Positions 1 to 3,000 of a stretch of DNA of 16,014 nucleotides are shown here, piece after piece. The stretch lies in the UHGV virus genome UHGV-0355397. One strand, given 5' to 3'. Origin of the DNA: a virus. Made by a program: the position numbers. Position 1 is the first letter of the stretch; each line of letters opens with the position of its first letter.

Positions 1-3000
1 AACGCCTATCGCGCAGCCATGTTTCAGTCCGGAAATTTTCGGGAAAACAAGAATTCGTCAACCAATAATTTTCGTGAAATCGCGGAAACGTCAACCAACT
101 CTCCGCTTATTCCTGGTGAAGTGTTGTCCGCAATCCGGGAGGTTGCCAGGATTCGTGCCGATTTCGATGATTTTGACGGTGACAGGCGAGGTATCGGTGA
201 TTGTCTGGATGAGGCCGAGCAAGAGCTTATCGTTACCATTAACAAATATGCCAGTCAGTTGGCAGCAGAACCGATAGCGACTAATGACGTTCGAGAACAA
301 ACAGCCGTTCCGCCAATACAGGCTGATGTCGCGCAAGCAATTGAAAATCTCAAGCAGAAGTTAGTGGAATGCAATCGCTATAACTACTGCGCAGATGCAG
401 TGAAGAACGTTGAGGATGCCTGCCACGCTGCCATGCTTCAGGGTAGCCAACCTGTAAGCCAAACTTACAAGTTGCCAGTTAATACACCTTGCCAAGATGC
501 GCCAGCCCATATCTGGCTGCAAACGGCTGGAGTATGGCCAGAAGATGGCGAGTTAAGCGAATTAACGTGGTGCAGCCACAATCAGCACCATGATGACACG
601 CTATATGTTCGAGCTGACCTTGTGAATGGCAACTCTCCGGTAACTCCGGATGGTTGGATAAGCTGTAGTGAGCGAATGCCTGAAAAGAACCAGAACGTGC
701 TTATTTCGGTGAATTTCGATAGTGATCTGGTTGAGCCGCTAATATGCTCCGCACGCTATACCGGAAGTACATTCCGGCGTGGAGGTGTAACGGTTATGCC
801 AGGTAATGGTATTGAGCAAGCAACTCACTGGATGCCGCTACCTGAACCGCCTCAGGAGGTTAATCGTGGCTAACCTGCAACTTGCCGTCAAAGGTGAATA
901 CTTCGATGCCATGATTCGAGGAGAGAAAACGGAAGAGTATCGACTGTGTAATGACTACTGGAATAAGCGAATTATGTTCCGGGAGTATGACCGCCTGATT
1001 ATCACAAAGGGATATCCGAAGCTCGACGATTCCAGCCGTAGAATTGATGTTCCGTATGACGGATATGAAATCAAGACAATCACACATCCGCACTTCGGCG
1101 ATAAACCGGTAAAGGTGTTCGCGATAAAGGTGAATATCGGCAATGAATAACAATCCTCGAACTCGCGGGGATTTCTTTTATCTGAACTCGCTACGGCGGG
1201 TTTTGTTTTATGGAGATGATAAATGCACTTCCGAGTCACAGGTGAATGGAATGGAGAACCATTCAACAGAGTTATCGAAGCCGAGAACATCAGCGACTGC
1301 TATGACCACTGGATGCTGTGGGCGCAGATAGCACATGCAGACGTAACCAATATTCGAATTGAAGAACTGAAAGAACACCAAGCCGCCTGATGGCGGTTTT
1401 TTATTGCCTGATTTGCAGGTTCGATTCCCTATTCGGAGATAGCACTCATGCAACACGAACTACAGCCTGATTCACTGGTTGATTTGAAATTCATCATGGC
1501 CGATACTGGCTTCGGTAAAACCTTCATCTATGACCGGATTAAGTCCGGCGACCTGCCAAAAGCCAAAGTTATCCACGGGCGAGCAAGATGGTTATATCGT
1601 GACCATTGTGAATTCAAAAATAAGCTTTTAAGCCGCGCCAATGGGTAAAATAGCGGGTAAAATATTTCTCACATCTAAAAAACACCATTCCAATCAATCC
1701 CCTGCCTCGTCAAGTAGATGTCTGCAGGGGACACCATTTATCAGTTCGCTCCCATCCGTACCAGTCCGCAAAATCCCCTGAATATCAAGCCTTCCGTATA
1801 TTCACAGTTCGTCATGGTTCGCGTCAGATCGTTGACAGCCGCACTCCATGACGGGTAAAAAGTGGATAAAATAATTTTACCCACCGGATTTTTACCCATG
1901 CTCACCGTTAAGCAGATTGAAGCAGCAAAGCCGAAAGAAAAACCATACCGCCTACTCGATGGTAATGGCCTGTACCTTTATGTCCCTGTATCAGGGAAAA
2001 AGGTATGGCAGCTTCGCTACAAGATTGACGGTAAGGAGAAAATCCTGACTGTCGGAAAATATCCGCTTATGACTTTGCAGGAAGCAAGGGATAAGGCATG
2101 GACTGCGAGGAAAGACATCTCGGTTGGCATCGATCCGGTAAGGGCGAAAAAGGCTTCGTCTAACAACAATTCCTTTAGTGCGATTTACAAGGAATGGTAC
2201 GAGCACAAGAAGCAAGTCTGGTCAGTAGGCTATGCAAATGAACTTGCAAAAATGTTTGATGACGACATTTTACCTATCATCGGCGGCCTTGAAATTCAGG
2301 ATATTGAGCCGATGCAACTGCTGGAAGTAATCCGCAGATTTGAAGATCGAGGTGCAATGGAGCGAGCCAACAAAGCCCGCAGAAGATGCGGCGAGGTTTT
2401 CCGTTACGCTATTGTCACTGGTAGGGCTAAATATAACCCGGCACCTGACCTTGCTGACGCCATGAAGGGATACCGCAAGAAGAACTTCCCGTTTCTTCCA
2501 GCAGACCAGATCCCGGCATTCAACAAAGCACTTGCAACATTTTCAGGAAGTATCGTATCGCTCATTGCGACCAAAGTTTTACGCTACACAGCCCTAAGAA
2601 CGAAAGAGCTTCGTTCCATGCTATGGAAGAACGTCGATTTTGAAAACAGGATTATCACCATCGACGCCAGTGTGATGAAGGGCCGCAAGATTCATGTAGT
2701 ACCGATGTCAGACCAGGTGGTTGAACTTCTCACTACGCTAAGCTCAATCACCAAACCAGTATCAGAGTTTGTTTTTTCCGGGCGCAACGATAAGAAAAAG
2801 CCAATCTGCGAGAACGCGGTGCTACTTGTGATCAAACAAATCGGCTATGAGGGGCTGGAAAGCGGTCACGGATTCAGGCATGAATTCAGCACGATTATGA
2901 ACGAGCACGAATCGCCTGCTGACGCTATTGAAGTGCAACTGGCACATGCCAACAGCGGATCTGTGCGCGGGATTTACAACCATGCTCAGTATCTAGATAA

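What the first reader, a model, noticed from the sequence alone, without database searches (positions are those of the whole stretch)
1413..1736. tRNA-Arg 3' half split in two around the excisionase gene
The T-arm segment TTGCAGGTTCGATTCC (1413-1428) lies just upstream of torI, and the remaining 3' segment CTGCAGGGGACACCA (1722-1736) lies just downstream. Joined, they would rebuild the contiguous 3' half of the tRNA, with the break exactly at the core boundary. A 16-nt exact match is not expected by chance in 16 kb. It could be a relic of an ancestral longer attP into which the xis cassette was inserted, a secondary Int/Xis binding site that mimics attB, or a scar of an abnormal excision.
Basis: partly seen in the sequence, partly recalled or inferred. 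Interest (0 to 1): 0.5.

Follow-up and report, generated by a model that had tools for sequence, protein, structure and literature searches.

The report
tRNA T-arm copy upstream of excisionase
A short, exact copy of part of the host arginine-tRNA gene sits just before the phage's excision gene; it is a second copy that has been kept nearly unchanged in related phages of many bacterial genera, so it is probably a control or protein-binding site rather than debris.

Summary
TTGCAGGTTCGATTCC (1413-1428) equals argW nt 46-61. CTGCAGGGGACACCA (1722-1736) equals nt 61-75 and is the published KplE1/HK620/Sf6 att core. The two pieces share one C.

The window is a P22-like phage in phage form: orf55, terminator, T-arm copy, torI/xis, attP, intS.

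The "tRNA half split by insertion of xis" reading is not supported.
- In more than 200 related loci the 16-mer is never contiguous with the core.
- Relatives keep a second, diverged T-loop copy (TTCGATGTW) directly left of the core, so the upstream piece is a duplicate.
- In Serratia and Pantoea the tRNA match runs 2 nt further, so the "exact break" is specific to the E. coli lineage.

The new finding is that the block (C)AGGTTCGATTYC sits 18-19 nt before the xis ATG in about 15 lineages. These include phages whose excisionase is only 39-51% identical. It is as conserved as the integrase arm sites, while its flanks are randomised. It is absent from about as many lineages. The published in-vitro excision substrate does not contain it.

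My best guess (about 0.4) is an attB left-half mimic that acts as a protein operator, most likely for the integrase core-binding domain, in the leader of the excisionase gene. Binding is untested.

The CUS-3 GenBank record annotates this 16-mer as the att core and therefore omits torI.

The parts
1223..1390 (+). Small ORF (55 aa), homologous to the 168-nt ORF next to lambda xis (the orf55 module). It is the last gene before the recombination module.
   Evidence: ORF list. Window 1150-1416 is 95% identical to lambda 29091-29358 and similar to many lambdoid phages.
1380..1402 (+). Intrinsic terminator (GCCGCC tgat GGCGG plus a T-run). The left mosaic boundary of the xis module lies at its T-run.
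   Evidence: Terminator scan. Different terminators precede the same TTTTTATTRCCTGATTTGCAGG in 125 loci. K-12 homology starts at about 1398.
1404..1416 (+). TTGC-N5-TTGC. The HK620 record annotates it as a cII binding site within a 'phage integration' promoter (equivalent to window 1403-1441). Its second TTGC is the first 4 nt of the T-arm copy.
   Evidence: HK620 features mapped onto the window. Lambda has TTGCgtgtaaTTGC at the aligned position before xis.
1413..1428 (+). Exact copy of argW nt 46-61 (TTGCAGGTTCGATTCC). The conserved core of the block is CAGGTTCGATTCC(C), 1416-1429. It contains the pentamer GTTCG (1419-1423).
   Evidence: Cross-genus conservation is 0.82-1.0 per position, against 0.2-0.4 in the flanks.
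1435..1447 (+). xis ribosome-binding region (GGAGATAGCACTC). It is conserved as GGAGATAAAAC(C) in other genera, 6-7 nt after the block.
   Evidence: Alignment of 12 lineages.
1448..1648 (+). torI/xis (hkaC, Sf6 gene 18): a 66-aa AlpA-type recombination directionality factor.
   Evidence: Named response regulator inhibitor TorI in RefSeq annotation.
1643..1662 (+). Two direct GGGTAAAA repeats (1643-1650 and 1655-1662). I read them as IntS arm-type sites of the P arm. That is my inference from their match to the TAAA motif reported for the P' sites.
   Evidence: Sequence. The repeats are invariant across genera. All P' arm sites contain TAAA (PMC2951348). The same repeats, inverted, lie before intS at 1853-1897.
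1692..1704 (+). Conserved AATCAATCCCCTG. It resembles the IHF consensus. Its CCCCTGC is an inverted repeat of GCAGGGG in the core.
   Evidence: Conservation. The published attR primer is named attR-IHF2. The IHF assignment is my inference.
1713..1721 (+). AGTAGATGT: the diverged T-loop-like segment directly left of the core. It reads TTCGATGTW in most other genera. I infer that it is the attP-side counterpart of the tRNA T-loop.
   Evidence: Alignment; sequences.
1722..1737 (+). attP core CTGCAGGGGACACCAT (argW nt 61-75 plus T).
   Evidence: The 16-nt core is published for KplE1 (PMC2951348) and annotated in HK620 and Sf6.
1744..1831 (+). Five TorI sites of the P' arm (I1-I5): GTTCG 1744, GTCCG 1764, GTTCG 1807, GTTCG 1817, GATCG 1827.
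   Evidence: The pentamers and their spacing match the description in PMC2951348. Located in the window.
1898..3052 (+). intS, a P4-family tyrosine integrase (Arm-DNA-bind_3, Phage_int_M and Phage_integrase domains).
   Evidence: Pfam. 99% identical to the CUS-3 integrase.

Best explanation
SHOWN: The window carries the KplE1/HK620/Sf6-type argW recombination module in phage form. The 16-mer before xis is a second, tRNA-derived copy of the T-arm side of attB. It belongs to the xis module. In E. coli phages the mosaic boundary lies upstream of it, at the terminator. Its core, (C)AGGTTCGATTYC, is kept almost unchanged 18-19 nt before the xis start codon in about 15 lineages from at least nine genera. 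The surrounding non-coding DNA there is randomised.

INFERRED: The block is under purifying selection as a cis-acting site. The most likely reader is the core-binding and catalytic part of the integrase.
- The block is exactly the 9-11 bp that flank the crossover region on the left in attB.
- The segment in the same position in attP is a related TTCGAT motif.
- The block persists in modules where both the integrase arm-site repeat and the excisionase repeat have changed, while attB and the integrase C-terminal region have not.

SPECULATIVE: An integrase molecule anchored on the arm sites just after xis could also hold this site and loop out the 200-bp xis gene. That would damp excisionase expression or shape the attP/attR complex.

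The block is not essential. About as many related modules lack it, and the published in-vitro excision substrate does not include it.
For: - Identity to argW nt 46-61.
- The block is always followed by xis and never by the core.
- Mean pairwise identity per position for GGTTCGATTYC is .82 .82 1 1 1 1 1 1 1 .67 1. This compares with 0.56 at xis third codon positions and 0.2-0.4 in the upstream intergenic DNA. It equals the level of the GGGTAAA repeats and the core.
- The distance to the ATG is fixed at 18-19 nt.
- The block is present upstream of excisionases that are only 51% (g341c) and 39% (phiEt88) identical to TorI.
- In both of those phages the arm-type repeat is GGGCATAA instead of GGGTAAAA.
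- In phiEt88 the 10-bp-spaced P'-arm repeats read GTAAC/GTTAC/GTAAA instead of GTTCG/GATCG. Its integrase is still 74% identical overall, mostly in the C-terminal part, and its core is still argW-type.
- The segment left of the attP core is TTCGATGTW in most genera. It shares TTCGAT with the block at the same offset from TGCAGG.
- There is a precedent in this same module: IntS and TorI sites in attL double as operators of the intS promoter, and the torI promoter is described as uncharacterised (PMC2951348).
Against: - No binding data exist for this site.
- It lies about 200 bp outside the 135-bp attR that supports excision in vitro (left primer = window 1625-1644; PMC3509656).
- It is absent from Klebsiella, Cronobacter, Mixta, Rahnella, Dryocola, Tatumella, Arsenophonus, Proteus, EhrS_49 and six phiEt88-like loci. 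All of these still use argW-type cores.
- The block is more strictly conserved than the segment left of the attP core. That is odd if the same protein domain reads both.
- A single half-site has no obvious partner. The bases between the block and the ATG do not resemble the rest of the core (p = 0.2-0.98).
- 5 of 80 E. coli copies carry a substitution inside the 16-mer.
- The phiEt88 argument rests on one lineage.
Confidence: 0.4

Rival explanations
1. Neutral relic. The block is a leftover tRNA fragment from an old abnormal excision or att-site duplication. It is carried along with xis and has no function.
For: - It is clearly tRNA-derived.
- It is outside the in-vitro excision substrate.
- It is missing from about half of the related lineages.
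- It is polymorphic in 5 of 80 E. coli copies.
- Cronobacter and Mixta have faint core-like sequences before xis (uncorrected p = 0.0035 and 0.022 over 9 tests). These hint at an old, fuller att copy in this position.
Against: - Seven consecutive positions are invariant across 11 lineages, while adjacent non-coding positions are at 0.2-0.4 identity and synonymous sites at 0.56.
- The block is retained at 39-51% excisionase identity.
- It is tandemly duplicated in Midgardsormr38.
Confidence: 0.15
2. TorI (excisionase) operator. TorI binds the GTTCG inside the block and autoregulates its own gene, or blocks transcription that enters it.
For: - The published TorI sites are defined by GTTCG, GATCG and GTCCG (PMC2951348), and the block contains GTTCG at 1419-1423.
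- TorI is already known to repress the intS promoter.
Against: - This is a single site, whereas known TorI sites are cooperative, helically phased repeats.
- Invariance extends over ATT-C after the pentamer, where sites I1-I5 vary.
- The G of GTTCG is not invariant: L245 has CTTCG.
- phiEt88 has replaced its P'-arm repeats with GTAAC-type repeats but keeps the block.
Confidence: 0.15
3. Part of a cII-activated, lambda pI-like promoter that makes integrase but not excisionase. TTGC-N5-TTGC would flank the -35 region, and the T-arm bases would be the spacer down to a -10 near 1430.
For: - The HK620 GenBank annotation marks a cII site and an integration promoter here.
- Lambda has its pI cII box TTGCgtgtaaTTGC at the aligned position, straight after the homologous terminator.
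- A start near 1442 would lack the xis ribosome-binding site.
Against: - The spacing is N5, not the N6 seen in the lambda box.
- The TTGC boxes are not conserved in Edwardsiella, Hafnia, Cedecea, Pantoea, g341c or phiEt88, where the block is conserved.
- The putative -10 bases are the most variable part of the leader.
- The consensus scan finds no promoter here.
- Promoter spacers are not normally sequence-constrained.
Confidence: 0.1
4. RNA-level leader element. The block acts in the xis mRNA, for example as a ribosome standby or enhancer site, a processing site or an RNA-binding-protein site.
For: The distance to the ribosome-binding site and ATG is fixed, and the whole leader from the block to the ATG is conserved.
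Against: - There is no conserved secondary structure: -1.35 kcal/mol and no covarying pair.
- The E. coli version cannot form the T-stem.
- No consistent long-range pairing partner was found.
- No Rfam family reaches its threshold.
Confidence: 0.15
5. One reading: one contiguous tRNA 3' half in an ancestral attP was cut in two by insertion of the xis cassette.
For: In E. coli phages the two pieces abut in tRNA coordinates, at nt 61.
Against: - A second T-loop copy remains next to the core in relatives.
- No contiguous form exists among more than 200 loci.
- The boundary differs in Serratia and Pantoea.
- The P-arm sites needed for recombination lie inside the supposed insert.
Confidence: 0.03

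Closest known systems
KplE1 (CPS-53) / HK620 / Sf6 argW recombination module (IntS, TorI, attL, attR)
   Same: The window has the same genes, the same 16-nt core, the same TorI pentamers and the same arm repeats. It is a member of this module.
   Different: In the two Ansaldi-lab papers read here, the described sites lie between the end of torI and the start of intS. The T-arm block before torI is not among them, and the torI promoter is called uncharacterised.
Direct repeats of a tRNA 3' end that flank elements integrated in tRNA genes (attL/attR cores)
   Same: A phage-borne copy of host tRNA sequence, in the same orientation as the tRNA gene.
   Different: It is not a crossover site. Prophages end at the true core next to dsdC. 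It copies the part of the tRNA to the left of the crossover, which integration does not need to restore.
Lambda pI promoter with its cII box (TTGC-N6-TTGC) at the start of xis
   Same: Same position relative to the homologous orf55 terminator and the start of an excisionase gene. The first 4 nt of the 16-mer align with lambda's second TTGC.
   Different: The spacing is N5. The boxes are not conserved where the block is. lambda xis and torI are unrelated genes.
Recombination-protein sites that double as operators (IntS and TorI repression of the intS promoter inside attL)
   Same: The proposed logic is the same: a site recognised by the recombination machinery, placed in the control region of a recombination gene.
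   Different: For the intS promoter this was shown by mutagenesis. For the block nothing has been tested, and the site type would be core-type rather than arm-type.

Membership tests
tRNA-derived att-site sequence | Identity to the target tRNA beyond the generic T-loop consensus | tested here: met
   16/16 match to argW nt 46-61, including variable-loop and T-stem bases. Across genera 13 nt (CAGGTTCGATTCC) are shared, and in several lineages also the TT two bases upstream.
tRNA-derived att-site sequence | Marks a prophage end, i.e. it is where crossover occurs | tested here: not met
   In K-12 and APEC O1 the prophage continues through torI to CTGCAGGGGACACCAT next to dsdC. The CUS-3 record's 'att core' label on the 16-mer is therefore a mis-call.
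Single attP core split by xis insertion | No other T-loop homologue remains next to the core, and contiguous ancestors exist | tested here: not met
   TTCGATGTW lies directly left of the core in most genera. None of 205 loci is contiguous.
cII-dependent promoter (lambda pI/pRE type) | TTGC-N6-TTGC flanking a -35 region, with a -10 element about 13 nt after the second TTGC | tested here: not met
   The spacing is N5. The candidate -10 (TATTCG) lacks the final T and is variable. The boxes are absent in six block-bearing lineages.
TorI binding site | A G(T/A)(T/C)CG pentamer | tested here: met
   GTTCG at 1419-1423.
TorI binding site | Arrays of helically phased repeats, and a motif that follows the excisionase's specificity | tested here: not met
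   There is a single copy, and no conserved second pentamer nearby. phiEt88 changed its P'-arm repeats but not the block.
Integrase core-type site | Sequence like the DNA flanking the crossover region in attB and attP | tested here: met
   Identical to the attB left flank. Shares TTCGAT with the attP left flank at the same offset from TGCAGG.
Integrase core-type site | Bound by the integrase C-terminal domains | not testable with these tools
   Needs a gel shift or footprint. The exact IntS cleavage positions are also not given in the papers read here.
Structured RNA element / Rfam family | Conserved secondary structure or a covariance-model hit above threshold | tested here: not met

The most novel reading that the evidence does not exclude
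The block is an attB half-site decoy in the leader of the excisionase gene. Integrase anchored on the arm sites just downstream of xis also grips this site and loops out the xis gene. Integrase would then feed back on excisionase expression, or on the choice between integration and excision. This integrase-to-excisionase control loop would be conserved across Enterobacterales phages that use argW.
Probability: 0.25. Interest if true: 0.6.

Novelty: new variant of a known kind. Interest (0 to 1): 0.4.

Why it matters
Panis et al. [quoted passage not shown] They described the torI promoter as uncharacterised. A 13-nt element that copies the attB flank, sits at a fixed distance before torI, and has survived where everything around it has diverged is a concrete, cheap-to-test candidate for that control.

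There is also a practical point. The 16-mer forms a direct repeat with the real tRNA at the other prophage end. This misled the annotation of CUS-3, whose record lacks torI and the true attR. It can mislead prophage-boundary callers in the same way.

Tried and rejected
- Contiguous forms: I searched IMG/VR for terminator, T-arm plus core with no xis. Every one of 125 matches is followed by the xis leader.
- Degenerate second core: I tested whether the bases between the block and the ATG are a decayed copy of the att core. This is not significant for the main type (p = 0.2-0.98). Only Cronobacter (p = 0.0035) and Mixta (p = 0.022) gave hints, and these are uncorrected for 9 tests.
- RNA structure: no conserved hairpin or masking of the ribosome-binding site. 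No consistent long-range partner. The single-sequence fold gives z = -1.9, mostly from the terminator.
- Rfam: only sub-threshold hits, driven by the terminator.
- Sigma-70 promoter scan: nothing at the block.
- A viral-contig scan with the TorI alignment returned only identical E. coli copies. That was useful for counting but not for diversity.
- The Pseudomonas AlpA homologues have a different gene layout and were not comparable.
- The CUS-3 paper (King 2007) is not held, so the mis-annotation rests on the GenBank record alone.
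Full report
WHAT THE WINDOW IS

The first 3 kb read, left to right, as follows.
- Early-left genes of a P22-like phage: a DUF551 protein, a small ORF, and a 55-aa ORF at 1223-1390.
- An intrinsic terminator at 1380-1402.
- The 16-mer at 1413-1428.
- A 66-aa ORF at 1448-1648.
- An intergenic stretch that holds CTGCAGGGGACACCAT at 1722-1737.
- A 384-aa P4-family integrase at 1898-3052.

The region is 97-98% identical to Escherichia phages of the genus Lederbergvirus, including Sf6 and HK620. The small ORF is TorI/HkaC, the excisionase of the KplE1 (CPS-53) prophage. 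The integrase is IntS, 99% identical to the CUS-3 integrase. Because xis, attP and int are contiguous, the window is in the phage (excised) form. In lysogens the match to the window breaks at 1722, directly after argW.

THE OBSERVATION

argW read from a lysogen is GTCCTCTTAGTTAAATGGATATAACGAGCCCCTCCTAAGGGCTAATTGCAGGTTCGATTCCTGCAGGGGACACCA.
- The first fragment is nt 46-61 and the second is nt 61-75. They share one C.
- Both occur once in the window, even with two mismatches allowed.
- The second fragment plus T is the 16-nt core published for KplE1 (PMC2951348).

THE BLOCK BELONGS TO THE XIS MODULE AND IS NOT HALF OF A SPLIT SITE

The 16-mer is identical in Sf6, HK620, K-12 KplE1 and APEC O1.

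- In 125 loci recovered with the pattern TGATTTGCAGGTTCGATTCC, the next bases are always the xis leader, (C/A)TATTCGGAGATAGCACTCATG. Several different terminators lie upstream.
- In 80 loci recovered by TorI protein alone, 75 carry the exact 16-mer and 5 carry a single substitution.
- No locus has the T-arm piece joined to the core.

In other genera the DNA directly left of the core reads TTCGATGTW followed by TGCAGGGGAC. This is a diverged copy of the tRNA's TTCGATTCC-TGCAGGGGAC. The E. coli form, AGTAGATGT, is a further diverged version. The module therefore holds two T-loop copies: a perfect one before xis and a diverged one next to the core.

In Serratia and Pantoea the upstream copy continues as ...GATTCCTG, 2 nt further into the tRNA. 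In Edwardsiella it reads ...GATTCCCTG. So the coincidence of the break with the core boundary is a feature of the E. coli lineage only. The model of one tRNA half cut in two by an xis cassette does not fit these facts.

CONSERVATION

I collected TorI relatives from GTDB genomes, public assemblies and GenBank phages.

(C)AGGTTCGATT(C/T)C lies 18-19 nt before the xis ATG (25 nt in Serratia) in these lineages:
- E. coli/Shigella, Enterobacter, Atlantibacter, Citrobacter, Serratia, Pantoea (two species), Edwardsiella, Hafnia and Cedecea-type contigs;
- an unassigned ENA contig;
- Salmonella phage g341c;
- Erwinia phages phiEt88 and Midgardsormr38. The latter has two tandem copies 16 nt apart.

Across 11 non-redundant lineages the mean pairwise identities are as follows.

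| Region | Mean pairwise identity |
|---|---|
| xis codon positions 1 / 2 / 3 | 0.77 / 0.88 / 0.56 |
| Non-coding DNA upstream of the block | 0.2-0.4 |
| G G T T C G A T T Y C, per position | 0.82, 0.82, 1.0 (seven positions), 0.67, 1.0 |

The level in the block matches that of the GGGTAAA repeats, the AATCAATCCCCTG block and the core itself.

g341c and phiEt88 keep the block although their excisionases are only 51% and 39% identical to TorI.

The block is absent from:
- Klebsiella, where xis overlaps the upstream gene;
- Cronobacter, Mixta, Rahnella, Dryocola, Tatumella, Arsenophonus, Proteus and Pantoea latae;
- Erwinia phage EhrS_49 and six phiEt88-like loci.

Where the att core could be read in these, it is argW-type.

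The picture is an old, tRNA-derived element that is strongly constrained where present but can be lost.

WHO READS IT?

Four candidate readers were weighed.

(a) RNA. There is no conserved structure, no covariation, no consistent pairing partner and no Rfam family. The E. coli version cannot form the T-stem.

(b) A cII-dependent promoter, as annotated in HK620.
- Lambda does have its pI cII box at the aligned place, and the first TTGC-like bases of the 16-mer align with it.
- However, the spacing here is N5.
- The TTGC boxes and the candidate -10 are not conserved where the block is.
- No consensus promoter is found.
- At most this is an overlay specific to the E. coli lineage.

(c) TorI.
- The published TorI sites are GTTCG, GATCG and GTCCG pentamers, and the block contains GTTCG.
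- But it is a single site, and the invariant positions run on through ATT-C, where the known sites vary.
- In phiEt88 the three 10-bp-spaced repeats before 'ttgac' have become GTAAC/GTTAC/GTAAA while the block is unchanged.

(d) The integrase core-binding and catalytic domains.
- The block is exactly the attB DNA that abuts the crossover region on the left.
- Some attR junctions and the phiEt88 attP lose identity after GGGGACA. I infer from this that exchange occurs within TGCAGGGGACA.
- The attP segment in the same position shares TTCGAT.
- g341c and phiEt88 have changed their arm repeat to GGGCATAA. Their integrases are nevertheless 61% and 74% identical to IntS, with the C-terminal part best conserved, and they use the same core.

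By elimination, and by the identity to attB, (d) is the best-supported reader. It remains an inference. It is also awkward that the block is more conserved than the attP segment it is supposed to resemble.

WHAT IT MIGHT DO

The 135-bp attR that supports excision in vitro starts at the equivalent of window 1625 (PMC3509656). So the block is not part of the minimal excision substrate.

In this module, IntS and TorI sites inside attL are already known to act as operators of the intS promoter. The authors of that work propose that control of excision acts on the excisionase gene. A core-type site 20 nt before xis, about 215 bp from the two arm repeats at the end of xis, could let one integrase molecule bridge both and enclose xis in a loop. 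This is speculation and is marked as such.

ORIGIN

The origin is unresolved. Cronobacter (ATGTAAGCAGGAGA against attP ATGTATGCAGGGGA, p = 0.0035) and Mixta (p = 0.022) hint at a fuller, decayed att copy before xis. These values are uncorrected for nine tests, and the main type shows nothing.

In g341c the block is joined directly to the first 18 codons of another excisionase-like ORF. So module exchange has placed a joint right at its left edge.

COMPARISON WITH WHAT IS KNOWN

- The core, the TorI sites, the arm sites and the gene order are all published for KplE1 and HK620.
- The 16-bp repeat was seen before, but it was mis-read. The CUS-3 record labels it 'attL core' and 'attR core' and stops there. 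No TorI coding sequence was found in that record. The collinear APEC O1 prophage continues through torI to the true core beside dsdC.
- I found no description of the block as a conserved element of the module in the papers held here. The primary KplE1 site-mapping papers (J Biol Chem 2007; Virology 2010) and the CUS-3 paper could not be read.

VERDICT

- The split-by-insertion reading is rejected.
- The attB-mimic option is the best supported, at moderate confidence.
- The finding is a modest but real and testable addition to a well-studied recombination module.

Noticed in passing
CUS-3 GenBank record CP000711 (L004:1-16 and L003:1762-1777); corresponds to window 1413-1428: The record labels TTGCAGGTTCGATTCC as 'attL core' and 'attR core' and ends at it. 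It therefore omits torI and the true attR core. APEC O1, which has a collinear right end, continues through torI to CTGCAGGGGACACCAT next to dsdC.
   Followed up: partly
window 3355-4563 (- strand): An IS256/Mutator-family transposase (Pfam Transposase_mut, E = 1e-119) lies just downstream of intS. The closest E. coli prophages have an acyltransferase gene soon after intS, so this looks like an IS insertion in this phage.
   Followed up: partly
window 1698-1704 and 1724-1730: CCCCTGC in the P arm is an inverted repeat of GCAGGGG in the core, 19 nt away. Both arms are conserved across genera. The left arm overlaps an IHF-like AATCAATCCCCTG.
   Followed up: no
L249:1756-1787 (Erwinia phage Midgardsormr38); also L133 (Enterobacter): In Midgardsormr38 the block is tandemly duplicated (cagGTTCGATTCCCgt cagGTTCGATTCCCac, 16-nt period). 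Enterobacter has a partial extra copy (TCGATTC) 12 nt upstream of its block.
   Followed up: no
L247:~1702-1755 (Salmonella phage g341c); L006:~1128-1175 (K-12): A 5' remnant of a second excisionase-like ORF (MESHSLTLDEACAFLKIS..., which from memory resembles P22 Xis) lies just upstream of the torI-type gene. In g341c it is fused directly to the block. This marks an old replacement of the integration module.
   Followed up: no
window 1641-1781 (+ strand): The 46-aa ORF annotated as hkaB / Sf6 gene 17 spans the attP core, so integration would split it. It is doubtful as a gene.
   Followed up: no
window 1371-1498 (- strand): Sub-threshold, full-length Rfam match to the Salmonella sRNA STnc130 (25 bits against a gathering score of 55; E = 0.07-0.2). 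It lies antisense to the xis start and the terminator. It is probably driven by the terminator.
   Followed up: partly
IMG/VR loci L148-L227: In 32 of 80 predicted prophage contigs the contig ends before the att core. Many end 3 nt after the torI stop codon, so the automatic prophage boundary cuts off attR.
   Followed up: no
L131, L134 (attR junctions) and L248 (phiEt88 attP): Identity to the tRNA stops after GGGGACA, so the CCA end is not supplied. This suggests that strand exchange occurs within TGCAGGGGACA. It also suggests that some lysogens would carry an argW gene without an encoded CCA.
   Followed up: no
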